Source: an uncultured Erysipelotrichales bacterium
GTDB lineage: Bacteria > Bacillota_I > Bacilli_A > Erysipelotrichales > Coprobacillaceae
Reading direction: 5' to 3'
Assembly (NCBI GenBank): GCA_964369175.1
Contig: CAYJEM010000013.1
Span: forward strand, 1-38,250
DNA: 38,250 bases
In this document: positions 9,693-34,464 of the stretch, in pieces
Layout: every line of letters starts with the position of its first letter
Position numbering within the stretch: the first letter of the stretch is position 1
Notes under the pieces: generated by a model
What the model saw: only the letters and a program-made list of their open reading frames with translations
The model's database searches: none
What the model was told of the DNA's origin: nothing
Made by a program: the position numbers and the translations under genes

Positions 9693-9734
9693 TTTATAGT
9701 ATAATTATGTATAGTCTAGTAAGACTATACACAT

Positions 9735-13909: not shown

Positions 13910-13912
13910 CAG

Positions 13913-13962
13913 CATTGTCTATACAATGTTGTTTTTATTATTGCATCATTGTCTAGACAATG
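13913..13962. promoter_or_regulatory. Two dre-like palindromes (CATTGTCTATACAATG, and a perfect 16-mer CATTGTCTAGACAATG) 34 bp apart, 30-80 bp upstream of the methyltransferase operon
   Basis: The GT-N-TA-N-AC core matches HutC/NagR/DasR-type operators (ATTGGTCTAGACCA). They lie between the GntR gene and the first methyltransferase gene. Confidence 0.55.
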
Positions 13963-13992
13963 TTACAATAATGTTGTTGATAGGAGGATATT

Positions 13993-15354: not shown

Positions 15355-15364
15355 GGAGAATAAC

Positions 15365-15994: not shown

Positions 15995-15997
15995 ACA

Positions 15998-17970: not shown

Positions 17971-17981
17971 GAAGGAAATAT

Positions 17982-19403
17982 ATGAAAACATATCTAGATG
18001 TTATTCAAGAACAAGGTACATTTTTACAGGCAACTTGCAATGGAAACAAAACATGTGGACAATGCAAAATAATTATGGAAAAAGTAGTACCGATATATGA
18101 TCAAGAGAAAAGGTTTTTAAGTGATAAAGATATATCTAATAATATACGACTAGCATGTTTTCATGAATATGATAGCAATGTTACGTATCAACTTTTAAAA
18201 ACAAAGTTTGATATTCTAGATAGTCTTAAAGAGGAAAAAAGTAATAATAAAGAACATCATAATCATAAAACTTTGATTATAGATATTGGAACAACTACGA
18301 TTGTAATGAAGTGGGTAGCACTGAATTCAGGAAAAGTTTTAAAAACAAAGTCTTTTAGAAATCCTCAGATTACATACGGTAGTGATGTGGTTTCAAGAAT
18401 TCGTTATAGTATTAATAAGCCATTTGTGTTGCATGATATACTAATTGATAAAATCACGTGTCATCTCGAGGGTGAAACAGATTTTTCTACGATGGTAGTA
18501 TGTGGTAATACAGTGATGCTTAATTTGTTTTTAAATCAAGATATTACCACGTTAGGTGTTGTACCATTTATAATCCCAATTAAGGATATGCAAATAATTA
18601 CATCGCCATCTATTTTTAAGAATGTTAATAGAGAATTTACAGTCATTACCTTCCCGCATATTGATAGCTATGTTGGTGGTGATATTGTTGCCGGTATATA
18701 TGCAACAAATATTGATATGGAAAAGAATAATTGTATGTTAATTGATTTAGGTACAAATGGAGAAATAGTTGTTGGAAATAATAAGACTATCTATACAACA
18801 TCTACTGCAGCCGGCCCAGCTTTTGAGGGTGTTGGCATAAACTGTGGGTGTCCAAGTATTCAAGGTGCAGTAACTAAAGTTTCATATCAAAATGGTAAGG
18901 TGTACTACACAACGATTGGGAACCTTCCACCAATAGGAATATGTGGCAGTGGGCTCGTTAGTATAATAGCGATGGCTAAAAATAATGGGATAATTGATGA
19001 ATTAGGACGTTTTACTAGTAATCAAAAAGAGTTGTTTATAAGTAAAGATGTGTATATTAATCAGTGTGATATTCAAAAATTCATTCTAGCAAAGGCAGCA
19101 ATTCAAGCAGGGATAATGGTACTTTTAGAAAAAGTTGAAAGTGTTGAAAAAATATACATTGCAGGTGGATTGGGAACAAATATTGATATACAAGATTTAA
19201 TTGACTTAAAGATAATACCTAGTAAATATGTTGATTGTGTTGAAAGTGTTGGTAATAGTGCACTTCAAGGTATATATAGTTATTCCTTGAAACAAGACAA
19301 AGGTAGAATCGAAAATATTGTAAAGTTGTCTAAGAGTATTAACTTAGCTACTTTAGATAATTTTGATGATTATCTAATTGAAGGGTTATATATTGATGAT
19401 TAA
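17982..19403 (+). CDS. RACE/RACo-type ATP-dependent reductive activator of corrinoid proteins (N-terminal [2Fe-2S] ferredoxin-like domain plus ASKHA ATPase)
   Basis: The N-terminus has a Cys cluster (CNGNKTCGQCKI...C). The downstream domain has actin-like ATPase phosphate motifs (IDIGTTT, IDLGTNGE, AGGLGTN). Confidence 0.7.
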   Translation: MKTYLDVIQEQGTFLQATCNGNKTCGQCKIIMEKVVPIYDQEKRFLSDKDISNNIRLACFHEYDSNVTYQLLKTKFDILDSLKEEKSNNKEHHNHKTLIIDIGTTTIVMKWVALNSGKVLKTKSFRNPQITYGSDVVSRIRYSINKPFVLHDILIDKITCHLEGETDFSTMVVCGNTVMLNLFLNQDITTLGVVPFIIPIKDMQIITSPSIFKNVNREFTVITFPHIDSYVGGDIVAGIYATNIDMEKNNCMLIDLGTNGEIVVGNNKTIYTTSTAAGPAFEGVGINCGCPSIQGAVTKVSYQNGKVYYTTIGNLPPIGICGSGLVSIIAMAKNNGIIDELGRFTSNQKELFISKDVYINQCDIQKFILAKAAIQAGIMVLLEKVESVEKIYIAGGLGTNIDIQDLIDLKIIPSKYVDCVESVGNSALQGIYSYSLKQDKGRIENIVKLSKSINLATLDNFDDYLIEGLYIDD

Positions 19404-20031
19404 AGTAATATCGTGTGGTGTATTCAAACCGTATATTGAACATTTAGAAATAGATAAATCAATATATCAATTCGTATATCTAGACATACATCAACACAAT
19501 CAACCTAAGCAACTATCAAAAGAATTACAAAGAGAAATTAATAAACCAACTAATGCATCTAACATTATTCTTTTGTATGGGCTATGTGGGGGAGCGCTGC
19601 TTTCAATTACAACGAATAGCATACCTATAACAATTGTCCAAGTCCATGATTGTATGGCTATTCTACTTGGAAGTAAGAAAAAGTATTTTGAGTTAACAAA
19701 AACAAATAAGTCAATTCAATGGACAAGTTATAGCTTAAGACAAAGTAATTACATAAATAATAGTATTGATGAATGGTCAAATCAATATGATGAAGAAACT
19801 GTTGAATATTTAAAAGAGATGTTACTTTTTGAAAATCCTATCTATATCTACTTAGATATAGATAAAGAGAGTAATGTATTACAAGAGTATAGTAAAGTCA
19901 TTGTCGGAAGTAATCAATTTCTAAAAGATATATTATTATTACAAGCAAAAGACATTATTACATTATATCCACGTCATAAGCTAAAACAATCTCTTGATAA
20001 TAAAGTAGTAATTAGCCTACCAATAGAGTAA
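19396..20031 (+). CDS. Hypothetical protein, possibly DUF1638-like (a family often linked to corrinoid methyltransferase operons)
   Basis: Its start overlaps the RACE stop (ATGATTAA), suggesting translational coupling. An alternative TTG start lies at 19378. The family assignment is from memory and is low confidence. Confidence 0.5.
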   Translation: MIKVISCGVFKPYIEHLEIDKSIYQFVYLDIHQHNQPKQLSKELQREINKPTNASNIILLYGLCGGALLSITTNSIPITIVQVHDCMAILLGSKKKYFELTKTNKSIQWTSYSLRQSNYINNSIDEWSNQYDEETVEYLKEMLLFENPIYIYLDIDKESNVLQEYSKVIVGSNQFLKDILLLQAKDIITLYPRHKLKQSLDNKVVISLPIE

Positions 20032-20614: not shown

Positions 20615-21298
20615 ATGGCAAACATTTTAAAAAGATTCTCTGACATTATGTCAGCAAATATTAACGCATTACTAGATAAGGCTGAAGACCCGGAAAAAAT
20701 GATTGATGAATATATGAGAGATATTCAAGATGATTTACGTAAAGTAAAAGCAGAAACAGCTGCAGTAATGGCACACGAAAAGCAAGCAATGAGAAAGCTT
20801 AATGAAAATAAACAAGACGTTGAAAAATATCAAAAATATGCTGAAAAAGCATTAATTGCAGGTAATGAAAATGATGCAAAAGCTTTTCTTGCAAAAAAAC
20901 AAGAATTAACAAATAACCAAGCAGGATTACAACAAATTTATGATGCAGCTATGGCTAATGCAAAGCGCATGAAAGATATGCACGATAAATTAGAAAAAGA
21001 TATGTTGAGTTTAAATGAACGAAAACAACAAATTAAAGCAAAAATGTCAGTAGCTAAGGCACAAGAAAAAATAAATAAAATGACTTCAAATACAACAAGT
21101 GGTGCAGATTCTATGGCAGCATTTAATCGCATGGAAGAAAAAGCAAATCGCTTATTAGATGAAGCAGATGCAATGGCAGAACTAAATACAAAAGAAGATT
21201 CAGTTGAAGATTTAACTGCAAAATATGATACTCCAGAAACAAGTGACCCAGCAGTAGACGATGAACTAGCAGCAATGAAAGCAAAGTTAGGATTATAA
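20615..21298 (+). CDS. pspA: PspA/IM30 family protein (phage-shock protein A / LiaH-like)
   Basis: 227 aa coiled-coil. The N-terminus MANILKRFSDIMSANINALLDKAEDPEKMIDEYMRD is typical of PspA. RBS aaggaga. Confidence 0.85.
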   Translation: MANILKRFSDIMSANINALLDKAEDPEKMIDEYMRDIQDDLRKVKAETAAVMAHEKQAMRKLNENKQDVEKYQKYAEKALIAGNENDAKAFLAKKQELTNNQAGLQQIYDAAMANAKRMKDMHDKLEKDMLSLNERKQQIKAKMSVAKAQEKINKMTSNTTSGADSMAAFNRMEEKANRLLDEADAMAELNTKEDSVEDLTAKYDTPETSDPAVDDELAAMKAKLGL

Positions 21299-21299
21299 A

Positions 21300-22355
21300 A
21301 TGACAACCGCATATAAATGTGAAAACTGTGGTGACACAATGTTATTTGATCCTAAAAGTGGAACTTTAAAATGTCCTGCTTGTGATAGCGAAATAACAAT
21401 TGAACATGATGCAAGTAAAGTTGTTGAACATACATTAACATTAGATGCAAAGCGATCAATTAAAGCAACTGAAAAAGAAACCCATACAATGGAATGTACA
21501 GGGTGTGGGGCCAAAATAGAAGTTGATGGTAATTCTACGGCAACTGAATGTCCGTATTGTGGTTCTAAGTTCGTACTTGCTAAAAAACAAGAAGATGCTC
21601 TAATTCCTGATGGATTAGTATCATTTAAAATTGATAGAAATGATGCTAAAAGATTGTTTGGTGAATGGATAAGTAATCGTTTTTGGGCACCTGGTGAATT
21701 AAAAGGGCTGCACCAAAAAGGAAAGATATTAGGTATTTATTTACCGTATTGGACATTTGATGCTGATGCATATACAAAGTATACTGCTAAAGGTGGAATA
21801 AATCGCACGGAAACATACGAAGATGATGAAGGGAATACACATACAAGTACAAAAACTGACTGGTATCCTACAAGGGGTCAAGTATCTAAGTTTATTGATG
21901 ATGAACTGGTGCCGGCAACTGCCGATGTAAGTGCCAATATCTTATCAAAACTTGATACTTTCGATACAACATCGGTAGTATCGTATGCTCCAGAATATTT
22001 GTCTGGTTATAATGCACAGTGTTATTCGATAAATTTAGATGATGCACATGTAGTTGCTAGAGGTAAAATGGATGAACAATTACGCCAATTAGTACGACAA
22101 GATGTACTGCGTAAATATGATGAAGTTGCAGATATTCGTATTGCTCCAGTCTATAGTGATGAAACATATAAGCATATTATGTTACCAATCTACAGTGCTG
22201 CATACCACTATAAGGACAAGGTGTACAATTTACTTATTAATGGACAAACTGGAGAAATTGAAGGTGAATATCCATTAAGTATTATTAAGATTGCAATTGC
22301 AGTTATATTAGCTATTATTTTATGTGCAGTTGCGTATTTTGTTTTTTACAAATAG
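21300..22355 (+). CDS. PspA-associated zinc-ribbon protein with C-terminal TM anchor (B. subtilis YdjG-like)
   Basis: Four CxxC pairs form two zinc ribbons (CENCGD...CPACD and CTGCGA...CPYCGS). There is a C-terminal hydrophobic helix. The start is coupled 1 nt after the pspA stop. Confidence 0.7.
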   Translation: MTTAYKCENCGDTMLFDPKSGTLKCPACDSEITIEHDASKVVEHTLTLDAKRSIKATEKETHTMECTGCGAKIEVDGNSTATECPYCGSKFVLAKKQEDALIPDGLVSFKIDRNDAKRLFGEWISNRFWAPGELKGLHQKGKILGIYLPYWTFDADAYTKYTAKGGINRTETYEDDEGNTHTSTKTDWYPTRGQVSKFIDDELVPATADVSANILSKLDTFDTTSVVSYAPEYLSGYNAQCYSINLDDAHVVARGKMDEQLRQLVRQDVLRKYDEVADIRIAPVYSDETYKHIMLPIYSAAYHYKDKVYNLLINGQTGEIEGEYPLSIIKIAIAVILAIILCAVAYFVFYK

Positions 22356-22370
22356 GATGGAGGTTATAGA

Positions 22371-23345
22371 ATGGGATTATTTTCAAATCAATTAGCTAAT
22401 GTAATTGAATGGAATGAGTTTTACGATGAAATGCTTTTTTGGAAGTGGAGCAATAAAGAAATAAAAAAGGGTAGTAAATTAATTATTCGTCCTGGACAAG
22501 ACGCAATATTTCTATACAATGGAGTTGTTGAAGGCGTTTTTGAAGATGAAGGAAGTTATGAGGTAGATACTCAAATTATTCCTTTTTTATCAACACTAAA
22601 AGGATTTAAATTTGGATTTAATAGTGGGTTACGTGCTGAAGTACTATTTATAAATACAAAAGAAGTATTAGTTAAATGGGGAACAAAGAGTCCAGTTTTA
22701 ATCCCAACACCAACACTACCTGGGGGAATGCCAATTCGTGCATTTGGAACATTCTCTTGTAAGATAGCAGATCATGATGTTTTAATTGAAAAAATTGCTG
22801 GTGTTAAACAACAATACACTGTAAATGATGTAAAGGATCGTATAGTATCTGTTTTAGATCAATTACTTATGAAGTGGATAGCAAAAGAAGGTAAGGATAT
22901 GTTTAACTTACAAATTAATGCTTCAGAAATAGCCAAAGGAATTCAAGAAGACTTAGACTACGAATTACTGTCAATAGGTATCTCGATTACTTCATTTGCT
23001 ATTTCGAACTTTAATTATCCTGAAAATATTCAAAAAATGGCTGAAGAAGTAGCAGCTCAAAGTATGATTGGGGATGTTAATCGTTATCAACAGGTAAATA
23101 TGGCCAATGCAGTTGGTAATGGATCAGGTGCTGGTGAAATGGCAGGACAAATGGCAGGAATGGCTATGGGTATGGCAATGGGGCAACAAATGGTCAACCA
23201 AATGAGTAATCAACAACAACCAATGCAACAACAACCAATGCAACAAGCAGATGTGCCTCAAGGCGTCTTAAAGTTTTGCCCAGAGTGTGGAACTAAAGCC
23301 ACTGGAAGTAAGTTTTGTGGAAATTGTGGATTTAAGCTAATGTAA
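22371..23345 (+). CDS. SPFH/band-7-like protein of the YdjI family (COG4260) with a Q/M-rich linker and C-terminal zinc ribbon
   Basis: The N-terminus (MGLFSNQLANVIEWNEF...IIRPGQDAIFLYNG) matches YdjI. A low-complexity segment MAGQMAGMAMGMAMGQQMVNQ...QQQPMQQQPMQQ precedes CPECG...CGNCG. Confidence 0.8.
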   Translation: MGLFSNQLANVIEWNEFYDEMLFWKWSNKEIKKGSKLIIRPGQDAIFLYNGVVEGVFEDEGSYEVDTQIIPFLSTLKGFKFGFNSGLRAEVLFINTKEVLVKWGTKSPVLIPTPTLPGGMPIRAFGTFSCKIADHDVLIEKIAGVKQQYTVNDVKDRIVSVLDQLLMKWIAKEGKDMFNLQINASEIAKGIQEDLDYELLSIGISITSFAISNFNYPENIQKMAEEVAAQSMIGDVNRYQQVNMANAVGNGSGAGEMAGQMAGMAMGMAMGQQMVNQMSNQQQPMQQQPMQQADVPQGVLKFCPECGTKATGSKFCGNCGFKLM

Positions 23346-24013: not shown

Positions 24014-25099
24014 TTACCATTGCTTATATAATTCAATAATTTGTGATTCATTTATGTTAAAAATATTATTAGTAATATTTTTTGTTTTAAAGGCTTTAGA
24101 GGCATATTGCATAATTTCAGTATCAGATAAACTAATTGCTTCAAAAAATTGTTTAGTGATGCTTGTGTACTCATCAAGAGATGTAATAACCATAGCATTT
24201 AAAATATCATTGACAATCTCCATGTGAGTGCTGCTTGCTAGTTGCAAGTACGCAGGCATTAGTATTGCATTTGCATAGCCGTGATCAATGCCTTTATAAT
24301 ATGTTAAATTATATCCCATTGCATGTACTACAGTTGTTCCGGTTTGGCTAATAACCATTCCAGCAAGCGATGAAGCATATAGTAAGCGATTATGAGTAGT
24401 GTTTGAAAGTGAATTTGTTTGTATGTTTTTAATTTCTTCAAAAATGATTTTTATACTCTCTAGTGCAAGTCTATTACTTAAGTCATTTGCTTTACATGAA
24501 AACATTCCTTCAATAGCATGGCTTAGTGCATCAAATACAGTATTAATATACACTTGTTTAGGTAAAGCGCGCATATATTTTCCATCAAGCATTGCAAGTT
24601 TTGGGAAGATATACTTAGTAGCAATTGATAGCTTTGTTTCTAAAATATCATTAGTAATAATAGCATATGGCGTTACTTCTGAACCAGTACCAGCAGTTGT
24701 AGGAATACAAATAATAGGTAGGACATCACTACTGTAATTACCATCAAACAATGTATCAATAGATTTTGCTTGCATGGCTTGCAAGGCAATTGCTTTGCAA
24801 GCATCCATCGGCGAACCACCACCTATGCCAATTACAAAATCAACATGGTGTTCCCTTGCAATAATTGCACCGTTATTGATTGTGTTAATTGATGGGTTTG
24901 GTTCAATTTTATCATATGTAATATAATTAATATTCTCTTTTTTCAATGCTTCAACAATATCATCATAAGCACCATTTTTATATGCAGAAGAATTCCCGCA
25001 TACAATCATAGCTTTCTTACCGTAAGTTGATAGTAGGTGGCTATTATTAATAATGCAGTTATCCTCTTGAATTATTTCTGTAGGCATAAAGTATTTCAT
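24014..25099 (-). CDS. Iron-containing (group III) alcohol dehydrogenase family protein
   Basis: The GGGSPMDACKAIA glycine-rich NAD motif and metal-binding His/Asp blocks are present. RBS aaggag. Confidence 0.85.
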   Translation of the reverse strand: MKYFMPTEIIQEDNCIINNSHLLSTYGKKAMIVCGNSSAYKNGAYDDIVEALKKENINYITYDKIEPNPSINTINNGAIIAREHHVDFVIGIGGGSPMDACKAIALQAMQAKSIDTLFDGNYSSDVLPIICIPTTAGTGSEVTPYAIITNDILETKLSIATKYIFPKLAMLDGKYMRALPKQVYINTVFDALSHAIEGMFSCKANDLSNRLALESIKIIFEEIKNIQTNSLSNTTHNRLLYASSLAGMVISQTGTTVVHAMGYNLTYYKGIDHGYANAILMPAYLQLASSTHMEIVNDILNAMVITSLDEYTSITKQFFEAISLSDTEIMQYASKAFKTKNITNNIFNINESQIIELYKQW

Positions 25100-27923: not shown

Positions 27924-29003
27924 ATGTTATTTGAAAAAACTAGAATAGGAAATATCGAAGTAAATAACCGTTTTGTACGTAGTGCAACATGGGAAAACAT
28001 GGCTGATGAAAAAGGAAATTTAAATGAATCATTATATATAGTATATGAAGAACTTGCAAAAAATCATGTGGGATTAATAATCACAGGATATGCTAACATC
28101 GTCGAAGAAGAAAAACCTAATCCAGGAATGATGGGAATCTATAATGATACCTTTATAGAGCAATATCAAGAACTAACTAACAGAGTTCATAAATATGATT
28201 GCAAAGTAATTATGCAACTTGCTTATGGAGGTACAAAAACAACATATAACGTTGGAGAAAGAGTAATCTTTGCACCAAGTACAGTTGCTGAAGCATCTAC
28301 TGGAGTTGTTGGAAAAGAGATGACAAAAGAAGATATTCAATATATTGTTAATGCATTTGGTGATAGTGCTAAGCGTGCTAAAGAAGCAAATTTTGATGGT
28401 ATTGAAATTCATGGTGCTCATACATATTTAATAAACCAGTTTTTAAGTCCGTATTACAACAAAAGAACTGATGAATATGGTGGTTGCTTAAGAAATCGCA
28501 TAAGATTTTTAGAAGAAATATATGCAAATTGTCGCCAAAAAGTTGGTGATGACTTTACAATTATGGTAAAACTTACATGTATCGATTTTCTAGATGGTGG
28601 GTTAGAATTAGAAGAAACAATTGAAATATGTAAATATATGGAAACATTGGGTGTTGATGCAATTGAACTTACAGGAAATGTACATGGAAAAGCAAATACA
28701 ATGATTGGAAAAGAATTTAATGGCTATGTAATCCAAAAAGAAGGATTTTTTATTGAATTTGTTAAAGCACTAAAGAAACATATTTCATTACCTATAATTG
28801 CAGTTGGTGGATTTCGAAGTCTAGAAGCAGTAGATATATATCACGATGAAGGTGTTGATTTTTTTGCATTATCGAGACCATTGCTAGCGCAACCAAATCT
28901 TATTTCCTTGTGGGAAAATAATGAGTCTATTAAAGCTAAGTGTATTAGTTGTTCAAAGTGTAGAACAAGTACTGGTAATTATTGTACAGTATTTAAAGGA
29001 TAA
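27924..29003 (+). CDS. Old-yellow-enzyme family NADH:flavin oxidoreductase with a C-terminal CxxCxxC-x7-C motif
   Basis: TIM-barrel OYE motifs (NRFVRSATWE, HGAHTYLINQFLSP) are present. The protein ends with KCISCSKCRTSTGNYC. Confidence 0.8.
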   Translation: MLFEKTRIGNIEVNNRFVRSATWENMADEKGNLNESLYIVYEELAKNHVGLIITGYANIVEEEKPNPGMMGIYNDTFIEQYQELTNRVHKYDCKVIMQLAYGGTKTTYNVGERVIFAPSTVAEASTGVVGKEMTKEDIQYIVNAFGDSAKRAKEANFDGIEIHGAHTYLINQFLSPYYNKRTDEYGGCLRNRIRFLEEIYANCRQKVGDDFTIMVKLTCIDFLDGGLELEETIEICKYMETLGVDAIELTGNVHGKANTMIGKEFNGYVIQKEGFFIEFVKALKKHISLPIIAVGGFRSLEAVDIYHDEGVDFFALSRPLLAQPNLISLWENNESIKAKCISCSKCRTSTGNYCTVFKG

Positions 29004-29005
29004 GC

Positions 29006-29035
29006 AATTTATTATTGCTTATTTTTTATTATTTT
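29006..29035 (+). terminator. Rho-independent terminator
   Basis: Stem aagcaat/attgctt around loop ttatt, followed by a T-rich run. Confidence 0.55.
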
Positions 29036-29093
29036 TTATTATTTTATAGAAAGTAATAAAAAACATGATATACTGTGACAAGGGGGTGTTTCT

Positions 29094-29858
29094 ATGTTTG
29101 CAAAAGAAAGACAAGAAAAAATAGTATCCTTGGTAAATGAAAAAGGATCTATTAAAGTAAAAGAATTAGCAGTACAATTTGAAGTAACCGAAGACAGTAT
29201 CCGTAAAGATTTAACAATTCTCGAAAGAAAAGGATTATTACAAAAAACATATGGTGGAGCCATAAAGGTTAGAACCATTACCCATAACTTTGGAGTTGAC
29301 ACTAGAAGATTATTAAATTCAGATGAAAAGAAAGAAATTGCTAGAAAAGCATTCTCATTAATTGAGGAGGGAGATACTATCTTTCTAGATGTATCAACTA
29401 TTGCTATTGAAATAGCGAACTTAATTGTTGAACATAAAAGCCGTATTACAGTAATGAGTAATATGTTAGATGTATTAAATGTACTTATAAAGTCAAATAC
29501 AATAGATGTATTATTTATTGGTGGGAGTTTAAATCGTACACGTGATGCCTTTATCGGAACTCATGCAATACAACAAATTGAGAAGTTTCAATTTGATAAG
29601 GCATTTTTAGGATGTGTTGGTGTCGATGTGGATGAAGATAAAGTATATACCTATAAGATAGATGATGGATACACAAAAGAAGCAATCTTAAAAGCAACAA
29701 AAAATCCATATTTAGTATTAGAACGTGATAAATTTTTACATGATGGTACATACTGTTATTGTACATTACAAGATTGTAAAGGGGTTATTACAAGTTCAAA
29801 AGTGGATTTAGAAATTGTACATAAAATTCATGAATTGGAAGTTAATATTATAAAGTAA
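29094..29858 (+). CDS. DeoR-family transcriptional regulator (N-terminal HTH, C-terminal sugar-phosphate-binding DeoR_C domain)
   Basis: N-terminal HTH (KERQEKIVSLVNEKGSIKVKELAVQFEVTEDSIRKDL) and a C-terminal ~160 aa DeoR_C-like domain. Confidence 0.85.
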   Translation: MFAKERQEKIVSLVNEKGSIKVKELAVQFEVTEDSIRKDLTILERKGLLQKTYGGAIKVRTITHNFGVDTRRLLNSDEKKEIARKAFSLIEEGDTIFLDVSTIAIEIANLIVEHKSRITVMSNMLDVLNVLIKSNTIDVLFIGGSLNRTRDAFIGTHAIQQIEKFQFDKAFLGCVGVDVDEDKVYTYKIDDGYTKEAILKATKNPYLVLERDKFLHDGTYCYCTLQDCKGVITSSKVDLEIVHKIHELEVNIIK

Positions 29859-29945
29859 TAAAAAGTAATAAAAAACAATAAAAATATATTGACTATTCCA
29901 TGCAATAATATATACTAGTATTGTAAAGTAATAACAAACAATAAC
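29851..29945. promoter_or_regulatory. Promoter region of the glycyl-radical-enzyme operon: TTGACT, 17 nt, ATACTA, flanked by AAAGTAATAA-type direct repeats
   Basis: Tandem aaagtaataa, aaagtaataa and aaaacaataa lie upstream. aaagtaataa and caaacaataa lie downstream of the -10. The same motif occurs at 29051-29064 in the deoR promoter. Confidence 0.45.
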
Positions 29946-29958
29946 TGGAGGAATAAAC

Positions 29959-32304
29959 ATGGATGTCGTAAAAACAGATAGAATAGATTATTTACAAAAA
30001 AATGCTATGAACACAGAACGTTATGTATCGATTGAACAGGCAAAATTAATCACAGAATCATATAAAAAGCATGAAGATAAACCAAGAATCATTCAAAGAG
30101 CACATTCTCTTGCTAATGCACTAGAAAATTTAGAAATTGCAATTGATGAAAAAGAATTAGTTGTAGGTAATCGTACAGTAGGAATTCGTCATGGAGTTGT
30201 ATTTCCAGAAAGTGGATGTAACTGGGTATATAAAGAGGCAGATACTATGTTTACTCGTCCACAAGATAAATTTATTTTTAGAGATGAAGATATTGAATAT
30301 TTTAAAAATGAAATTTATCCATACTGGCAAGATAAGTCAATGGAAAATCTGATTCGTGAAAGATATGGTAAAGAAATTGATTTAATTACTCCAGTTGCAA
30401 AGATAAACCAAAAGGATCATGCACAAGGGCACATTTGTCCTGATTGTACAAGCTGGTTATTAACAAATCCAACTGCTTTAAAAGAAGAGGCTAAGGCATT
30501 ACTTGAAAAAGAAACAGTACAATCTAAACGTGAATTTTATGAGTCACAAATTATTGTAATGGAAGCAGTGGCTGTGTTCTACAACCGCTATGGGGATTTG
30601 GCAGATAAAATGATTAAAGAATTAGGTGTTGATGAAAATCACTCGTTATATACAATTCGTAATAATTGTTATCATCTAGCAAATAATGCACCAGAAAACT
30701 TCCATCAGGCAGTTCAAGCATTATGGTTTTTATTTACAATCCTACACATGGAATCGAATGCTTCAAGCTTTTCTCCAGGAAGAATGGATAAGTACTTATA
30801 TCCTTTCTATAAAAAAGATATTGATGCAGGAAAAACGAATCAAGAATTATTTGATATATTGTCATGTTTATGGATTAAGTTTAATGAAATTGTATATTTA
30901 CGTAATAGCCATAGTGCTAAATTTTTTGCAGGGTTTCCAATTGGTTTCAATATCGCATTAGGTGGTGTTGATGAAAATAATCAACCATTTGAAAATGAAT
31001 TATCGTTTATGTGTTTACAGGCACAAGAGAATTTAGGGTTACCACAACCAAATTTATCAGTACGTGTTCATGAAAACACATCAAAAGAATTATTAGAAAA
31101 GGCAGTTACAGTTGTTTCTAAAGGAAGCGGGATGCCACAATTCTTTAATGATAAAAGTGTTATTAATGCATTAATTGACTTAGGTATTGACAAAGAAGAT
31201 GCCCGTGACTATGCAATTGTTGGGTGTGTTGAAATTACTACTCAAGGAAATAACTTAGGGTGGTCAGATGCAGCAATGTTCAATCTAAATAAAGCGTTAG
31301 AGTTAACATTAAATAATGGTAAATGTTTACTTACTGGAAATCAAATTGGTTTGGATTTAGGGAACTTAACTACTTTTGAAACTTTTGAAGACTTGGAAGA
31401 AGCATTTAAAAAACAAATTAAATATTTCATTGATGAAATGATGAAAGCATGTACAGTTGTAGAAATTGCTCATCAAGAATGTATACCAACACCATTTTTA
31501 TCAAGTGTAATCCAAGGGTGCATTGAAAAAGGTATGGATGTTACTGCAGGTGGGGCTAAATACAATTTATCAGGTATTCAAATGATTCAAATTGCAAACT
31601 TAGCAGATAGTTTAGCTGTAGCTAAAGAACTAATCTATGATACAAATAAAATATCCAAAGAAGAGATGATGAGTGCCCTTCAAGATAATTATGAAGGACA
31701 TGATCTTACAAAAGCAATTATTGAAAATGTTGCAAAAAGATATGGAAATGATATTGAATGGGTAGATAACTTAGGTGCTAAATATGCACGTTTCTTTAAA
31801 GAGGAAGTAAGCAAATATACAAACTACCGTGGTGGAAAAATTCATACTGGTATGTATACTGTATCAGCCCATGTACCTATGGGAGAAAATGTTGGAGCGG
31901 CATTAGATGGTCGCCTAGCTAAAGAACCACTTGCTGATGGAGGAATGTCACCTGTATACGGTCGTGATGTAAAAGGACCAACAGCGGTATTAAAATCGGT
32001 TAGTCGTCTAGGTAATGATTTGACAACAAATGGTGGATTATTGAATTTAAAATTCTTACCTTCATTCTTTAATGAAGAGGGAATTAAAAAATTTGCATTA
32101 TTCTTAAGAGCATTTGTAGACTTAGAAATTCCACATATTCAATTTAACGTTGTACAACCACAAGATTTAAAAGCAGCTAAAGAATCACCAGAAAAGTATA
32201 AAAACTTAACAATACGCGTTGCTGGGTATACTGCATATTTTGTAGAATTAGATGGTAAATTACAAGATGAAATCATTAACCGTACAAGCTATGAACAAAT
32301 CTAG
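29959..32304 (+). CDS. Glycyl radical enzyme, eliminase/dehydratase class (PFL superfamily; YbiW-like)
   Basis: 781 aa. C-terminal glycyl-radical motif RVAGYTAYF. Active-site loop AIVGCVEITTQG has a single thiyl Cys plus Glu, as in GCVE-type dehydratases/lyases, not the CC of PFL. Confidence 0.88.
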   Translation: MDVVKTDRIDYLQKNAMNTERYVSIEQAKLITESYKKHEDKPRIIQRAHSLANALENLEIAIDEKELVVGNRTVGIRHGVVFPESGCNWVYKEADTMFTRPQDKFIFRDEDIEYFKNEIYPYWQDKSMENLIRERYGKEIDLITPVAKINQKDHAQGHICPDCTSWLLTNPTALKEEAKALLEKETVQSKREFYESQIIVMEAVAVFYNRYGDLADKMIKELGVDENHSLYTIRNNCYHLANNAPENFHQAVQALWFLFTILHMESNASSFSPGRMDKYLYPFYKKDIDAGKTNQELFDILSCLWIKFNEIVYLRNSHSAKFFAGFPIGFNIALGGVDENNQPFENELSFMCLQAQENLGLPQPNLSVRVHENTSKELLEKAVTVVSKGSGMPQFFNDKSVINALIDLGIDKEDARDYAIVGCVEITTQGNNLGWSDAAMFNLNKALELTLNNGKCLLTGNQIGLDLGNLTTFETFEDLEEAFKKQIKYFIDEMMKACTVVEIAHQECIPTPFLSSVIQGCIEKGMDVTAGGAKYNLSGIQMIQIANLADSLAVAKELIYDTNKISKEEMMSALQDNYEGHDLTKAIIENVAKRYGNDIEWVDNLGAKYARFFKEEVSKYTNYRGGKIHTGMYTVSAHVPMGENVGAALDGRLAKEPLADGGMSPVYGRDVKGPTAVLKSVSRLGNDLTTNGGLLNLKFLPSFFNEEGIKKFALFLRAFVDLEIPHIQFNVVQPQDLKAAKESPEKYKNLTIRVAGYTAYFVELDGKLQDEIINRTSYEQI

Positions 32305-33193
32305 TATTGGAACAGTCTTTGATATTAAGAAATTTGCTGTTCATGATGGTGTAGGAATTCGCACAACTGTATTTTTAAAGGGATGTAACTTAAAGTGTGT
32401 ATGGTGCCATAACCCTGAAGGGTTATCATCAACTCGCAATGTTACTATTAAAAATTCATGTATTCACTGTAATCGATGTAAATCAGTGGATGATGATAAT
32501 GTTGTTTATGTTGAAAATGGAAAGCGTTATATAATGAATAATACTGAGATAGATTATCAAAAGTATATCGATATATGTCCTATTGAGGCAATTAGTTATG
32601 ATTCAAAATATTATCAAGTTGAAGAATTAGTACAAGAGATTTTAGATGATTGTGTATTTTTAAAATATGGTGGAGTAACATTTTCTGGTGGGGAACCGCT
32701 ATTGCATTATGATTTTTTACTGGCGTGTGTTAAAAGATTAAAACAGGAAAATATCCATATTGCTATTGAAAGTGCTATGGTAATTGACCCCATAAAAGTG
32801 AAATCACTAATTCCATATATCGATGAATGGTTTTGTGACTTAAAAATATTTAATGATAACGATCATAAAAAATATACTGGTGTTTCAAATAAGTTGGTAC
32901 TAAAGAATATTGAACAACTACTAGAAAATGATGTAAATATTACAATTCGAACACCATTAATACCAACACTTAGTGCAACGAAAAAAAATATTAAAGAAAT
33001 TGCAACATATTTATACACGATAAATAAAGATGTTAAATTAGAATTATTAAACTATAACCCACTAGCACTTAGTAAGTATCAAAGTTTAAAGATGAAGTAT
33101 TACTTTGATGAAAATCCAAGTATGTTTAGTGAAGAACAAATGAAAGAGTTTAGAAATATCGCAGCAAACTGTGGTATTAATAATATAAAATAA
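32252..33193 (+). CDS. Glycyl-radical enzyme activating protein (radical SAM, with two auxiliary ferredoxin-like clusters); start may be 32292
   Basis: CNLKCVWCHNPE radical-SAM CX3CX2C motif. Extra Cys clusters CIHCNRCKSV and CPIEAI. Overlaps the GRE 3' end. Confidence 0.85.
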   Translation: MVNYKMKSLTVQAMNKSSIGTVFDIKKFAVHDGVGIRTTVFLKGCNLKCVWCHNPEGLSSTRNVTIKNSCIHCNRCKSVDDDNVVYVENGKRYIMNNTEIDYQKYIDICPIEAISYDSKYYQVEELVQEILDDCVFLKYGGVTFSGGEPLLHYDFLLACVKRLKQENIHIAIESAMVIDPIKVKSLIPYIDEWFCDLKIFNDNDHKKYTGVSNKLVLKNIEQLLENDVNITIRTPLIPTLSATKKNIKEIATYLYTINKDVKLELLNYNPLALSKYQSLKMKYYFDENPSMFSEEQMKEFRNIAANCGINNIK

Positions 33194-33204
33194 AGGAGAT
33201 AATT

Positions 33205-33882
33205 ATGAAATTTATTATTGATGATGCAAATGTAGAAGTTATTAAAGAAATCTGGGATTTATATCCATGTGATGGAGTAACAACAAATCCATCAATTCTT
33301 GCTAAAGCTGGAAAACCACCTTATGAAGTATTAAAAGAAATTAGAGCAATTATTGGTAGTGAAGCAGAATTACACGTACAAGTAACTGCTAATACTTATG
33401 AGGGGATGTTGGATGATGCACATCGTATTATTAAAGAGTTAGGAAGTAACACATATGTAAAAGTGCCAACTACACCTTTAGGGTTAAAAGTTATGAAACA
33501 ACTTCATAAAGAGGGGATTTATATCACAGCAACAGCAATCTATACAGCAATGCAAGGATACTTAGCTGCAAAAGCGGGTGCTAGTTATGCTGCTCCTTAC
33601 GTAAATCGTATTGATAATTTAGGAGCAAATGGTGTAGAAACTGCTAAAACAATTGATGATATCTTTAAAACAAATAATTTACCATGTGAAGTATTAGCAG
33701 CTTCATTTAAAAATTCACAACAAGTATTAGAGCTTACAGCTTATGGTATTGGTGCAAGTACTATTGGAACTGATGTTATTTTAGGATTAATTAAACATGA
33801 TTGTGTAGGGTTAGCTGTAGAAGTGTTCGAAAAAGATTTTGAAGGTCTTTGTGGTACAGGAAAAACAATGGCAAATATCTAA
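33205..33882 (+). CDS. Fructose-6-phosphate aldolase / transaldolase-like (TalC/FsaA subfamily)
   Basis: 225 aa. N-terminus MKFIIDDANVEVIKEI...DGVTTNPSIL. The Schiff-base lysine context (VKVPTT) and short length are typical of the FSA/TalC subfamily. Confidence 0.85.
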   Translation: MKFIIDDANVEVIKEIWDLYPCDGVTTNPSILAKAGKPPYEVLKEIRAIIGSEAELHVQVTANTYEGMLDDAHRIIKELGSNTYVKVPTTPLGLKVMKQLHKEGIYITATAIYTAMQGYLAAKAGASYAAPYVNRIDNLGANGVETAKTIDDIFKTNNLPCEVLAASFKNSQQVLELTAYGIGASTIGTDVILGLIKHDCVGLAVEVFEKDFEGLCGTGKTMANI

Positions 33883-33888
33883 ATTAAA

Positions 33889-33916
33889 CTTGCTTTATGC
33901 GAGTTTTTTTATTAAT
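33889..33916 (+). terminator. Rho-independent terminator after the aldolase gene
   Basis: Stem aacttgc/gcgagtt (one G-U pair) with loop tttat, then T7. Confidence 0.5.
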
Positions 33917-34014
33917 GCAATTATTTTTTATTTTTTTATATTTTATAGAAAAAAATGTATCTTTTACTTGATTTTTTAAGTATAATATGCATGAGAGGAA
34001 GAAAGGAGTAGCGT

Positions 34015-34464
34015 ATGAAAATTACAACAAAAGGCAGATATGCATTGCGTCTAATGGTTCATTTAGCACAAAATTCTTCTAGAGATAGAATATCTTTAAA
34101 AGACATAGCAGTAGGTGAAGATATTTCTATGAAATATTTAGAACAAATTGTACCGTATCTAGCAAAAGAAAATTTGGTTCACTCAACAAGAGGGGCTAGA
34201 GGAGGATACAGTCTTACTAAATCTCCAGAGGAATATAGCGTAGGTGAAATTATAGAAGCAGTAGAAGGAAAAGTGTGTTTAGTAGATTGTACTCATGGAA
34301 ATGAGAACTGTAGTCGATATGATGAATGTCATACGTCGGCATTGTGGTCAGGATTATCTAATGAAATCCGCAATTATTTAAATGATTTTCCTTTATCTAA
34401 CTTATTAGTACAAGAAGAAGAGGATATTAAGTGCAAGATGGGGGAAGCACCACATATTTTGTAG
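34015..34464 (+). CDS. Rrf2-family transcriptional regulator (CymR/IscR-like)
   Basis: N-terminus MKITTKGRYALRLMVHLA is the Rrf2 HTH signature. It sits upstream of cysK, as cymR does in Bacillales. Confidence 0.8.
   Translation: MKITTKGRYALRLMVHLAQNSSRDRISLKDIAVGEDISMKYLEQIVPYLAKENLVHSTRGARGGYSLTKSPEEYSVGEIIEAVEGKVCLVDCTHGNENCSRYDECHTSALWSGLSNEIRNYLNDFPLSNLLVQEEEDIKCKMGEAPHIL

What the first reader, a model, noticed from the sequence alone, without database searches (positions are those of the whole stretch)
29094..33882. DeoR-regulated glycyl-radical eliminase, activase and FSA/TalC-like aldolase operon (YbiW-YbiY-FsaA-type)
The GRE has the single-Cys GCVE active-site loop of the dehydratase/lyase class (glycerol and propanediol dehydratase, CutC, HypD, sulfonate lyases) and the RVAGY glycyl motif. 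Its activase has the two auxiliary Fe-S clusters usual for that class. The gene after them is a 225-aa fructose-6-phosphate aldolase/TalC-type enzyme. The same GRE-AE-FSA trio is found in E. coli K-12 as ybiW-ybiY-fsaA. The function of the YbiW family remains uncharacterised as far as I know. The conserved linkage suggests a radical C-O or C-X cleavage on a sugar-derived polyol or phosphate, whose product or precursor is made or cleaved by the aldolase (DHA, hydroxyacetone or glycolaldehyde chemistry). The DeoR regulator points to a sugar-phosphate effector. A related possibility is a sulfo-transaldolase-type reaction feeding a sulfonate-cleaving GRE. No sulfoquinovose isomerase or transporter is nearby.
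Basis: partly seen in the sequence, partly recalled or inferred. Interest (0 to 1): 0.8.

Follow-up and report, generated by a model that had tools for sequence, protein, structure and literature searches.

The report
PflD-like anhydro-sugar radical lyase operon
This is a real four-gene cassette (regulator, oxygen-sensitive radical enzyme, its activator, small aldolase) of a kind whose job was worked out in 2024, the anaerobic breakdown of 1,5-anhydro-sugars, so it is largely explained, although this enzyme belongs to an untested sister branch of the characterised ones.

Summary
All four ORFs lie exactly at 29094-33882: DeoR regulator, 781-aa glycyl radical enzyme (GRE; GCVE 422-425, RVAGY 753-757), activase and 225-aa FSA-type aldolase.

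The claim that the YbiW family is uncharacterised is out of date. Ma et al. (JACS 2024) showed that YbiW opens 1,5-anhydroglucitol-6-P (AG6P) and PflD opens 1,5-anhydromannitol-6-P (AM6P). Both give 1-deoxyfructose-6-P (DF6P), which FsaA/FsaB cleave to glyceraldehyde-3-P (G3P) and hydroxyacetone.

The window GRE is nearer PflD (43% identity, 653-660 bits) than YbiW (33%, 408 bits). It groups with PflD in 95.5% of bootstraps and shares PflD-specific motifs. It still fails NCBI's PflD equivalog model (780 bits against a cutoff of 1109; both characterised PflDs pass) and has a different Cys-loop flank. It is therefore an uncharacterised sister clade.

Relatives at 63% identity or more keep GRE-AE-FSA. 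Eubacterium loci add a Frw-like PTS, as at E. coli pflD. The most likely function is ring-opening of a 1,5-anhydrohexitol-6-P, probably AM6P.

The activase has four conserved extra Cys, enough for one auxiliary cluster, not two. I also found a conserved array of 10-nt repeats abutting the operon promoter, a candidate DeoR operator.

Known kind, new member. Interest is modest.

The parts
29047..29074 (+). Promoter-like site for the deoR gene (TAGAAA-16-TG-TATACT). One copy of the 10-nt repeat (GTAATAAAAA, 29053-29062) lies in its spacer.
   Evidence: Consensus scan, 9/12 with an extended TG. 15-mer hit at 29051-29065. The site sits downstream of a hairpin plus T-run that ends the upstream OYE gene (sequence read).
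29094..29858 (+). DeoR-family transcriptional regulator, 254 aa. It has an N-terminal HTH and a C-terminal DeoRC sugar-phosphate-type sensor domain.
   Evidence: Pfam HTH_DeoR 2.5e-15 and DeoRC 1e-39. The best NCBIfam matches are AgaR, SrlR and GlpR, all below their equivalog cutoffs. A DeoR gene sits next to the GRE in 11 of the 13 other distinct FSA-subclade loci that were fetched.
29855..29884 (+). Array of three tandem 10-nt repeats (GTAATAAAAA GTAATAAAAA ACAATAAAAA) ending 4 nt before the -35 box. It is a candidate DeoR operator or a phased A-tract element.
   Evidence: Sequence read. The 15-mer AAGTAATAAMAAACA occurs 3 times in the 38-kb window, all in this locus, against 0.05 expected. 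The same array lies directly upstream of the GRE -35 in the Erysipelotrichales MAG and in seven distinct Eubacterium loci. Degenerate copies occur in Clostridium and Coprobacillaceae loci, and none in the Spirochaetia/Oscillospiraceae loci.
29889..29916 (+). Sigma-70-type promoter of the GRE-AE-FSA operon (TTGACT-16-TATACT).
   Evidence: Best match in the region, 10 of 12. TTGAC plus a -10-like box are conserved at the same place in relatives.
29928..29947 (+). Two further repeat copies (GTAATAACAA ACAATAACTG) between the -10 box and the ribosome-binding site (GGAGG 29947-29951).
   Evidence: 15-mer hit at 29926-29940. Partly conserved in L001.
29959..32304 (+). Glycyl radical enzyme, 781 aa, of the single-Cys CXE class. 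The thiyl Cys423 and Glu425 lie in GCVE (nt 31222-31233). The radical Gly756 lies in RVAGY (nt 32215-32229). It belongs to a sister clade of PflD, the 1,5-anhydromannitol-6-P C-O lyase.
   Evidence: Pfam PFL-like 4e-194 and Gly_radical 6.5e-26. TIGR01774 scores 776 bits against a cutoff of 678. NF007437 (PflD) scores 780 bits against a cutoff of 1109. The best PDB hits are PflD 8id0 and 8yjo, at 660 and 653 bits. The grouping with PflD has 95.5% bootstrap support.
32252..33193 (+). GRE-activating radical SAM enzyme. The maximal ORF is 313 aa, and the probable start is at 32267 or 32291, overlapping the GRE stop. It has CX3CX2C (C45/C49/C52) plus a reduced ferredoxin-like insert with four Cys (C70, C73, C76, C109).
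   Evidence: TIGR02494 scores 261 bits against a cutoff of 174. Alignment with relatives, PflC and YbiY. Cys positions. A 60%-clade relative's activase (L025) hits the Fer4 dicluster models, while the window's does not.
33205..33882 (+). Class I aldolase of the fructose-6-phosphate aldolase (FSA/TalC) type, 225 aa. It has Asp6, Gln59, the Schiff-base Lys86 (nt 33460-33462), Tyr132 and Arg135.
   Evidence: Pfam TAL_FSA 9.3e-51. NF009299 scores 212.6 bits against a cutoff of 214. The best PDB matches are E. coli FSA structures, at 153 bits. It is 38% identical to FsaB. Residue positions.
33886..33916 (+). Intrinsic-terminator-like hairpin plus T-run that ends the operon.
   Evidence: It is the only terminator-like site found in 28900-34100. 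The next gene (Rrf2, 34015) is a separate cysteine-metabolism unit.

Best explanation
The cassette is a DeoR-controlled 'anhydroglycolysis' module.

**Proposed mechanism (inferred by analogy, not shown here).**
1. The activase uses S-adenosylmethionine and its [4Fe-4S] cluster to place a radical on Gly756 of the GRE.
2. The radical passes to Cys423, which abstracts the C2 hydrogen of a 1,5-anhydrohexitol-6-phosphate. The substrate is most likely AM6P, the substrate of its nearest characterised relative PflD. AG6P is the alternative.
3. Glu425 deprotonates the C2-OH and the C1-O5 ring bond breaks.
4. Back-transfer of the hydrogen gives open-chain DF6P.
5. The co-transcribed FSA-type aldolase splits DF6P through its Lys86 Schiff base into G3P, which enters glycolysis, and hydroxyacetone.

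**Regulation and supply (inferred).** DeoR probably represses its own promoter and the operon promoter by binding the phased 10-nt repeats, and is released by a sugar phosphate. Uptake and phosphorylation must be encoded outside this window. Relatives use a Frw-like PTS or an FGGY kinase.

**Shown here:** gene identities, motifs, the sister relationship to PflD, and the conserved gene linkage.

**Inferred:** the substrate, the DeoR-repeat interaction and the fate of hydroxyacetone.
For: - Identities and catalytic motifs are established.
- The nearest solved structures are PflD from S. dysgalactiae with bound AM6P (8ID0, 660 bits) and E. coli PflD (8YJO, 653 bits). GD scores 558 bits and YbiW 408 bits.
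- In the NJ tree, the window clade, P0122 and PflD group together in 95.5% of 200 bootstraps, excluding GD-like and other eliminase representatives.
- Some derived features are shared with both PflDs and are rare or absent in the 12 outgroup GREs. They are NQxDxxQGH, ESNASS, Arg21, Arg72, Asp437 and the one-residue insertion in ADGGxSP. The YTVSAH motif is also shared with both PflDs.
- GRE-AE-FSA is conserved in 11 of 14 distinct loci with 63% or more GRE identity. The next outgroup, L022, also has FSA beside the GRE.
- Seven distinct Eubacterium loci (five complete, two partial) carry PMI, a PRD regulator, EIIA, EIIC, EIIB, HPr, EI, a Cof-type HAD, DeoR, GRE, AE and FSA. Their EIIC is 43% and their EIIB 62% identical to E. 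coli FrwC and FrwB. This mirrors ptsA-frwCB-pflDC-frwD plus fsaB-gldA.
- The aldolase has the FSA-type Gln59, Lys86 and Tyr132, not the transaldolase-type residues.
- The biochemistry of YbiW, PflD and FsaA/B comes from PMC13450708 section 5.7 and PMC12441222 section 5.1.
- The repeat array is conserved upstream of the promoter across orders.
Against: - The GRE fails the curated PflD equivalog model. It scores 780 bits against a cutoff of 1109, while both biochemically characterised PflDs pass at 1725 and 1229 bits.
- It is only 43% identical to either PflD, and those two are 61% identical to each other. E. coli PflD is about equally similar to glycerol dehydratase, at 42.5%.
- 45 positions fixed in the window clade carry a different residue that is fixed in both PflDs. 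Several lie in active-site loops: the Cys-loop flank is GCVE[IL]TTxGNNLGWSD against GCVExSIPGRTYGLHD, and PIGFN stands against PTGYT.
- No PTS, sugar kinase or gldA lies in the 38-kb window.
- The Spirochaetia/Oscillospiraceae half of the clade has the same active-site motifs but no FSA, PTS or DeoR nearby.
- The structural model has low confidence in exactly the substrate loops, so no pocket comparison was possible.
- No experiment exists for this clade, as far as the library searches show.
Confidence: 0.6

Rival explanations
1. The pathway logic is the same but the substrate has the opposite C2 configuration. On this reading the clade is the Firmicute AG6P lyase, or accepts both epimers. It would be the functional counterpart of YbiW rather than PflD.
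For: - Both epimers give the same product, DF6P, so FSA linkage does not discriminate between them (chemistry; PMC13450708 section 5.7).
- The clade differs from PflD at residues next to the catalytic Cys/Glu: F330/N331 against Y/T, S436 against H, and the TTxGNN loop.
- A genuine PflD orthologue already exists in Firmicutes: S. dysgalactiae 8ID0 is 61% identical to E. coli PflD. The window clade is therefore a paralogue, which often means a different specificity.
Against: - It is only 33-34% identical to YbiW.
- It lacks YbiW's NGHS motif and its RYGRGPVGG insertion.
- The linked PTS in relatives is Frw-like, as at pflD.
- A mannose-6-P isomerase gene is co-located in six of the seven distinct Eubacterium loci, which favours the manno configuration.
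Confidence: 0.15
2. The GRE acts on another sugar or polyol phosphate that also yields an FSA-cleavable 1-deoxy-ketose phosphate. One example is dehydration of open-chain mannitol-1-P or glucitol-6-P, by H abstraction at C2 and loss of the C1-OH. This would be a third specificity within the family.
For: - The chemistry is the same beta-elimination from a C2 radical (inference).
- The Eubacterium loci have an MtlR-like PRD/EIIA_2 regulator and EIIA_2-type PTS parts, which would also suit a hexitol.
- The clade fails the PflD equivalog cutoff and has its own fixed active-site loop.
- One Spirochaetia genome has two paralogues of the clade (L029 and L035).
- Some members sit next to lactonase, SDR or ABC sugar transport genes instead of FSA.
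Against: - There is no direct evidence.
- The closest characterised enzymes are ring-opening lyases.
- The PTS components are most similar to Frw.
- Hexitol phosphates already have efficient dehydrogenase routes (general knowledge).
Confidence: 0.12
3. It is a B12-independent glycerol or 1,2-propanediol dehydratase, and the aldolase is an unrelated neighbour.
For: - GD (1R8W) is the third-best sequence hit, at 558 bits, and the top Foldseek hit.
- An Fe-ADH gene lies 5 kb upstream on the other strand.
Against: - GD's substrate-binding His281 is replaced (NGHS to NASS), Tyr339 becomes Phe, and YPSSIN becomes YTVSAH.
- The tree places the clade with PflD, away from GD.
- The aldolase is co-transcribed and conserved across orders.
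- There is no dhaT-like gene in the operon.
- The Fe-ADH is separated from the operon by several unrelated ORFs (a methyltransferase, small unannotated ORFs and the OYE gene) and by a terminator.
Confidence: 0.03
4. It is a sulfonate-cleaving GRE fed by a sulfo-transaldolase.
For: None beyond the general co-occurrence of a TAL/FSA-fold protein with a GRE.
Against: - The HpfG and HpsG equivalog scores are 583 and 502 bits against cutoffs of 1000. IslA and IseG are among the weakest PDB hits.
- The aldolase matches FSA at 153 bits, against 88 bits for the sulfofructose transaldolase, and it has the FSA Tyr132.
- No sulfoquinovose genes lie in the window.
Confidence: 0.01

Closest known systems
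PflD/PflC with FsaB, GldA and the Frw PTS of E. coli, and PflD of Streptococcus dysgalactiae (AM6P C-O lyase; PDB 8YJO, 8ID0; Ma et al., JACS 2024)
   Same: - It is the best sequence match, at 653-660 bits and 43% identity.
- It is the sister clade in the tree, with 95.5% support.
- Shared motifs are CXE and RVAGY, NQxDxxQGH, ESNASS, YTVSAH, the ADGGxSP insertion, Arg21 and Arg72.
- The activase has the same reduced four-Cys insert and overlaps the GRE gene.
- It is linked to an FSA-type aldolase, and in relatives to a Frw-like PTS.
   Different: - It fails the NF007437 equivalog cutoff.
- The Cys-loop flank differs, and it has F330/N331 instead of Y/T.
- It carries an insertion of about 18 residues after the Cys loop that PflD lacks.
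- Here the GRE, activase and aldolase form one operon under a DeoR regulator. In E. coli fsaB-gldA-ptsA is a separate divergent unit.
- No PTS or gldA lies in this window.
YbiW/YbiY with FsaA of E. coli (AG6P C-O lyase; PDB 8ID7)
   Same: - Same overall pathway and product, DF6P.
- Same enzyme class.
- An FSA gene next to the GRE/activase pair.
- No PTS in the immediate locus.
   Different: - Only 33-34% identity and 408 bits.
- YbiW keeps the NGHS motif, lacks the ADGG insertion, and has its own RYGRGPVGG insertion and a different Cys loop.
- fsaA is divergently transcribed.
B12-independent glycerol dehydratase (C. butyricum, 1R8W) and 1,2-propanediol dehydratase (5I2A, 9RCO)
   Same: Same fold (TM about 0.9), the same single-Cys CXE catalytic loop, the conserved His of GVGH and the Asp of GWHD/GWSD.
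   Different: 38% identity. The substrate-contact residues differ (NGHS to NASS, Tyr339 to Phe, YPSSIN to YTVSAH). The tree branch is different. There are no dha or pdu genes, and the operon includes an aldolase instead.
Fructose-6-phosphate aldolase FsaA/FsaB (E. coli, 1L6W)
   Same: 220-225 aa. Asp6, Gln59, the Schiff-base Lys, Tyr131 and Arg134 equivalents are all present. 38% identity to FsaB.
   Different: It scores just under the NCBIfam cutoffs (212.6 bits against 214, and 192.8 against 246). Positions equivalent to the donor-pocket residues Leu107 and Gly108 differ (Thr and Ala).

Membership tests
Glycyl radical enzyme superfamily (PFL-like branch) | PFL-like barrel domain plus a C-terminal glycyl radical domain with RVxG[FWY], and a catalytic Cys loop. 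| tested here: met
   PF02901 4e-194, PF01228 6.5e-26. RVAGY at 753-757 and GCVE at 422-425.
PFL2/glycerol dehydratase subfamily (TIGR01774; the CXE 'eliminase/isomerase' class) | Score above the curated subfamily cutoff, with a single Cys followed by Glu (CXE). | tested here: met
   776.3 bits against a cutoff of 678.2. C423-V-E425.
PflD (AM6P C-O lyase) | Score above the curated equivalog cutoff of NF007437. | tested here: not met
   The window scores 779.9 bits against a cutoff of 1109. E. coli PflD scores 1724.8 and S. dysgalactiae PflD (8ID0) scores 1229, and both pass. The clade relative P0054 scores 779.9.
PflD (AM6P C-O lyase) | Groups phylogenetically with characterised PflDs and carries PflD-specific active-site signatures. 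| tested here: inconclusive
   It is sister to PflD with 95.5% bootstrap support, not nested within it. It shares NQxDxxQGH, ESNASS, YTVSAH and the ADGG insertion. It differs in the Cys-loop flank and at F330/N331. In all, 45 clade-fixed positions differ from both PflDs.
PflD (AM6P C-O lyase) | Catalyses AM6P to DF6P. | not testable with these tools
   Needs anaerobic reconstitution. The structural model is unreliable in the substrate loops (pLDDT below 50 at 318-328, 634-647 and 655-675).
YbiW (AG6P C-O lyase) | Close sequence relationship to YbiW and YbiW-type motifs. | tested here: not met
   33-34% identity and 408 bits, against 660 bits for PflD. NGHS, the RYGRGPVGG insertion and the GCIE loop of YbiW are absent.
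Anhydroglycolysis gene module (Ma et al. 2024) | The GRE plus activase is genetically linked to an FSA-type aldolase. | tested here: met
   The aldolase starts 11 nt after the activase stop, in the same operon. The linkage is kept in 11 of 14 distinct loci at 63% or more GRE identity.
Anhydroglycolysis gene module (Ma et al. 2024) | A PTS (or kinase) supplies the 6-phosphate, and GldA reduces hydroxyacetone. | tested here: not met
   There is no PTS, sugar kinase or GldA orthologue in the 38-kb window. The Fe-ADH at 24014-25099 is only 22% identical to GldA. A Frw-like PTS is present in relatives, and an FGGY kinase in L019.
Fructose-6-phosphate aldolase (FSA/TalC) as opposed to transaldolase | Schiff-base Lys, Gln (not Glu) at position 59, Tyr (not Phe) at position 131, and curated HMM cutoffs. 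| tested here: inconclusive
   Residues met: Asp6, Gln59, Lys86, Tyr132 and Arg135. HMM cutoffs narrowly missed: NF009299 scores 212.6 bits against 214, and TIGR00875 scores 192.8 against 245.95. The Pfam TAL_FSA cutoff is met.
GRE-activating enzymes | Radical SAM CX3CX2C, a score above the TIGR02494 cutoff, and a ferredoxin-like insert with eight Cys for two auxiliary clusters. | tested here: inconclusive
   CX3CX2C is present and TIGR02494 scores 261 bits against a cutoff of 174, so both are met. Only four conserved insert Cys are present (C70, C73, C76, C109), so the two-cluster feature is not met. PflC and YbiY show the same reduction. The eight-Cys norm is from PMC13450708 section 2.1.
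DeoR-family regulators | HTH_DeoR domain plus DeoRC sensor domain. | tested here: met
   PF08220 2.5e-15, PF00455 1e-39. No equivalog cutoff is reached; AgaR scores 153 bits against 260.
Sulfonate-cleaving GREs (HpsG, HpfG, IslA/IseG), CutC, HypD | Score above the respective equivalog cutoffs. | tested here: not met
   HpfG 583 against 1000, HpsG 502 against 1000, HypD 570 against 1100, CutC 537 against 1050.

The most novel reading that the evidence does not exclude
The window GRE belongs to a large, tightly conserved clade found in Erysipelotrichales, Eubacterium, Clostridium, Oscillospiraceae and Spirochaetia. Its members share the motif GCVE[IL]TTxGNNLGWSD. The clade is a paralogue of PflD and may have a third, still undefined substrate specificity. 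That substrate could be another anhydro- or deoxy-sugar phosphate, or an open-chain hexitol phosphate dehydrated to DF6P. If so, it would extend radical 'anhydroglycolysis' to a new nutrient. The phased 10-nt repeat array would be the operator of a dedicated DeoR regulator.
Probability: 0.25. Interest if true: 0.55.

Novelty: new member of a known kind. Interest (0 to 1): 0.3.

Why it matters
The operon type links a radical enzyme to glycolysis. It lets strict anaerobes, many of them gut bacteria, ferment 1,5-anhydro-sugars derived from diet and from glycogen or starch. 1,5-Anhydroglucitol is also a clinical marker and the toxic precursor in G6PC3/GSD-Ib neutropenia (PMC12441222).

The window shows that the module exists as a compact DeoR-GRE-AE-FSA operon in an Erysipelotrichales-like Firmicute. 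It also shows that a widespread sister clade of PflD, which current NCBI models leave as a generic 'glycyl radical protein', probably does this job.

Testing the clade's substrate would show how far the pathway extends in the microbiome. It would also give annotation pipelines a rule for thousands of unnamed GREs. The conserved repeat array offers a ready handle for studying the pathway's regulation.

Tried and rejected
- **Structure.** The AlphaFold model (pLDDT 81) and Foldseek against the PDB do not discriminate. All CXE-class GREs match at TM about 0.9, with GD nominally first, and the substrate loops are modelled with low confidence. No active-site comparison could be made.
- **Primary paper.** I could not read Ma et al. 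2024, either by DOI or by PubMed id. The substrate-contact residues of 8ID0 and 8ID7 are therefore unknown to me beyond Cys and Glu.
- **Literature.** Searches for further characterised members of the clade found nothing beyond the 2026 review.
- **Hydroxyacetone reductase.** The Fe-ADH 5 kb upstream is only 22% identical to GldA and is not in the operon, so I do not claim it.
- **YbiV-like phosphatase.** The Cof-type HAD in the Eubacterium loci is only 25% identical to YbiV, so the link is weak.
- **RNA elements.** The Rfam and tRNA scans found no riboswitch or RNA element in the operon.
- **Tree building.** The first tree attempt with Biopython's distance calculator timed out. I redid it with my own Kimura distances.
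- **Rejected readings.** Glycerol/propanediol dehydratase and the sulfonate lyase plus sulfo-transaldolase are both rejected (see rivals).

Full report
**1. Observation**

The window is AT-rich (about 31% G+C). It carries sporulation and clostridial wall genes (SpoIID, ChW). The closest genome in the GTDB representative set is an uncultured Erysipelotrichales MAG.

At the stated coordinates there are four co-directional ORFs:
- DeoR, 29094-29858.
- A 781-aa GRE, 29959-32304.
- A radical SAM activase, 32252-33193. It overlaps the GRE stop, and its likely start is 32267 or 32291.
- A 225-aa TAL/FSA-fold protein, 33205-33882.

The domain assignments are unambiguous, and GCVE (422-425) and RVAGY (753-757) are present. 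A good promoter match (TTGACT-16-TATACT, 29889-29916) lies between deoR and the GRE. The only terminator-like hairpin follows the aldolase at 33886-33906. So GRE-AE-FSA is one transcription unit, and deoR has its own promoter.

The upstream neighbour is an OYE-family flavoprotein ending in its own hairpin. The downstream neighbours are Rrf2 and CysK. Both are separate units.

**2. One anatomical claim is wrong**

GRE activases usually carry a ferredoxin-like insert with eight Cys for two auxiliary clusters (PMC13450708 section 2.1). The window activase has only C70, C73, C76 and C109 in the insert, besides the CX3CX2C motif. This four-Cys pattern is invariant across its relatives and in E. coli PflC and YbiY. 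By contrast, a 60%-clade relative's activase (L025) hits the Fer4 dicluster models. At most one auxiliary cluster is therefore expected.

**3. The family is no longer uncharacterised**

The paper search led to a 2026 GRE review and a 2025 review on 1,5-anhydroglucitol. Both report Ma et al., J. Am. Chem. Soc. 2024, 146:26187. In that work:
- YbiW opens AG6P and PflD opens AM6P.
- Both give DF6P.
- FsaA/FsaB cleave DF6P to G3P and hydroxyacetone.
- Uptake is by a PTS.

The PDB titles confirm the complexes: 8ID0 is PflD with AM6P from S. dysgalactiae, and 8ID7 is YbiW with AG6P. It is now established knowledge.

**4. Which paralogue?**

Against all PDB sequences, the GRE scores as follows:

| PDB chain | Enzyme | Bits |
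|---|---|---|
| 8ID0 | PflD, S. dysgalactiae | 660 |
| 8YJO | PflD, E. coli | 653 |
| 1R8W | Glycerol dehydratase | 558 |
| 5I2A | Propanediol dehydratase | 512 |
| 8ID7 | YbiW | 408 |

Identity is 43% to either PflD and 33-34% to YbiW.

E. coli K-12 has gldA-fsaB-ptsA divergent from frwC-frwB-pflD-pflC-frwD. It also has ybiV-ybiW-ybiY divergent from fsaA. The E. coli counterpart of this operon is therefore the pflD locus, not ybiW.

**5. Is it a PflD?**

No, by the curated test. NCBIfam's PflD equivalog (NF007437, cutoff 1109) scores the window GRE at 780 bits. Both characterised PflDs pass, at 1725 and 1229 bits.

A search of 1.84 billion cluster representatives shows three tiers: the window's own cluster (P0121, 938 bits), a second clade (P0122, 733 bits), and then a drop to 588 bits or less. 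E. coli PflD's representative is a fragment (P0205).

I built an NJ tree of 42 sequences with 200 bootstraps:
- The window clade ('W', 26 sequences) is recovered in 100% of replicates.
- W + P0122 + PflD is recovered in 95.5%, excluding glycerol dehydratase and ten other eliminase representatives.
- The branching order among W, P0122 and PflD is unresolved.

W shares several features with both PflDs that are rare or absent in the outgroups. They are NQxDxxQGH, ESNASS (NGHS in GD and YbiW), Arg21, Arg72, Asp437 and a one-residue insertion in ADGGxSP. The YTVSAH motif (GD has YPSSIN) is also shared with both PflDs.

W also has its own fixed features:
- GCVE[IL]TTxGNNLGWSD, where PflD has GCVExSIPGRTYGLHD.
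- PIGFN, where PflD has PTGYT.
- An insertion of about 18 residues after the Cys loop.
- In all, 45 clade-fixed positions where both PflDs share a different residue.

A genuine PflD orthologue exists in Firmicutes: S. dysgalactiae PflD is 61% identical to E. coli PflD. W is therefore a paralogous sister clade, not 'the Firmicute PflD'.

**6. Gene context in relatives**

I fetched 38 related loci and scored their neighbours by tblastn with reference proteins.

There are 14 distinct loci with 63% or more GRE identity, counting the window. They come from the window, an Erysipelotrichales MAG, Eubacterium spp. including E. segne, Clostridium spp., Coprobacillus/Coprobacillaceae and Acetivibrio ethanolgignens.
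- 11 of the 14 have FSA directly after the activase.
- The next outgroup, L022, has FSA directly after the GRE.
- Seven distinct Eubacterium loci carry the upstream block PMI, PRD/EIIA regulator, EIIA, EIIC, EIIB, HPr, EI, Cof-type HAD and DeoR. It is complete in five and partial in L013 and L017.
- The EIIC is 43% identical to FrwC and the EIIB is 62% identical to FrwB. This is the architecture of the E. coli pflD locus.
- A Coprobacillus locus has an FGGY sugar kinase instead.

Members at 53-60% identity (Spirochaetia, Oscillospiraceae) keep the same active-site motifs. They lack FSA, PTS and a nearby DeoR orthologue. One sits between SDR/lactonase genes and AraC/ABC sugar transport genes.

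**7. Mechanism proposed**

The mechanism is inferred by analogy with PflD (PMC13450708 section 5.7):
1. The activase generates the Gly756 radical.
2. The Cys423 thiyl abstracts the C2 hydrogen.
3. Glu425 deprotonates the C2-OH.
4. The C1-O5 bond breaks.
5. The alpha-keto radical is quenched to DF6P.
6. The aldolase cleaves DF6P to G3P plus hydroxyacetone. It carries Asp6, Gln59, Lys86, Tyr132 and Arg135, the FSA-type rather than transaldolase-type residues.

FSA is specific for the D-threo configuration (established knowledge of the family). A ring substrate must therefore be AM6P or AG6P. Sisterhood to PflD, the Frw-like PTS and the neighbouring PMI in six of the seven distinct Eubacterium loci all favour AM6P.

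An open-chain hexitol phosphate dehydrated at C1/C2 would give the same product, and I cannot exclude it.

The window itself has no transporter, kinase or GldA. Those functions must lie elsewhere in the genome.

**8.

A 10-nt unit RYAATAAAAA is repeated three times in phase at 29855-29884, ending 4 nt before the -35 box. It occurs twice more between the -10 box and the RBS (29928-29947), and once in the deoR promoter spacer (29053-29062).

The 15-mer AAGTAATAAMAAACA has three hits in the whole window, all in this locus, against 0.05 expected. The same array, including an identical 20-mer, sits just upstream of the GRE promoter in the Erysipelotrichales MAG and in seven distinct Eubacterium loci. 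Degenerate copies occur in Clostridium and Coprobacillaceae loci. It is absent from the Spirochaetia/Oscillospiraceae loci.

DeoR, GlpR and AgaR-type repressors bind phased direct repeats (general knowledge). I therefore read this array as the candidate DeoR operator. A phased A-tract promoter element is the alternative.

**9. Rivals rejected**

- *Glycerol/diol dehydratase.* Substrate residues are replaced, the tree branch is different, and there are no dha genes.
- *Sulfonate lyase with sulfo-transaldolase.* The GRE is far below the HpsG/HpfG cutoffs, and the aldolase is FSA-type.
- *Structure.* The model and fold search could not add resolution.

**10. Verdict**

This is a real operon of a kind explained in 2024, the 'anhydroglycolysis' module. 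Its GRE is an uncharacterised sister clade of PflD. It fails the curated PflD model, but its context indicates that it works like the PflD system. I file it as a new member of a known kind.

Interest is modest (0.3). What remains open is the clade's exact substrate, for which I give about 25% to something other than AM6P or AG6P, and the conserved repeat operator.

Noticed in passing
window 29855-29884, 29928-29947, 29053-29062; also L001 9896-9925, L007 9890-9940, L013, L015, L016, L017, L020, L021 upstream of the GRE: Phased tandem 10-nt repeats RYAATAAAAA abut the -35 box of the GRE operon. They are conserved across Erysipelotrichales and Eubacterium, degenerate in Clostridium, and absent where DeoR/FSA are absent. 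Candidate DeoR operator.
   Followed up: partly
window 32252-33193: The activase has only four conserved Cys in its ferredoxin-like insert, enough for one auxiliary cluster at most. E. coli PflC and YbiY show the same. A 60%-clade relative's activase (L025) has a full dicluster domain.
   Followed up: yes
L029 and L035 (both from OY782041.1, Spirochaetia); L023, L027, L028, L030, L037, L039: One Spirochaetia genome carries two paralogues of the window GRE clade. Several loci have a second, distant GRE plus activase (33-38% identity) within 10 kb. These loci lack FSA, PTS and DeoR.
   Followed up: no
L005 5927-9617; L029 7946-9803: A 7-bladed lactonase lies immediately upstream of the clade's GRE in two unrelated loci. 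In L005 it is accompanied by 6PGD and G6PD, and in L029 by an SDR. This may hint at a different sugar-acid or lactone-related context.
   Followed up: no
L019 60-1556: An FGGY-family sugar kinase lies upstream of DeoR-GRE-AE-FSA in a Coprobacillus MAG. This suggests kinase-based rather than PTS-based phosphorylation in some carriers.
   Followed up: no
window 13208-20031: A corrinoid-dependent methyltransferase cluster. It contains a GntR regulator, a URO-D/MtaA-like methyltransferase fused to a thioredoxin-like domain, a B12-binding protein, a 365-aa protein with no Pfam hit, CobW, a RACo-type reductive activase and DUF1638.
   Followed up: no
window 9246-10081: smpB is followed by a tmRNA gene (9735-10081, tag peptide GNRTNYSFA). 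A 5'-truncated tRNA lies at 1-50.
   Followed up: yes
window 24014-25099 (-), 27924-29003 (+), 121-1041 (-): An Fe-dependent alcohol dehydrogenase, an OYE-family flavin oxidoreductase and an aldo/keto reductase lie near the operon. The first two are syntenic in the 84% relative L001. Any of them might reduce hydroxyacetone, but none is a GldA orthologue or part of the operon.
   Followed up: partly
window 20615-23345: A membrane-stress-type cluster: PspA/IM30, a 351-aa protein with no Pfam hit, and an SPFH/Band-7 protein.
   Followed up: no
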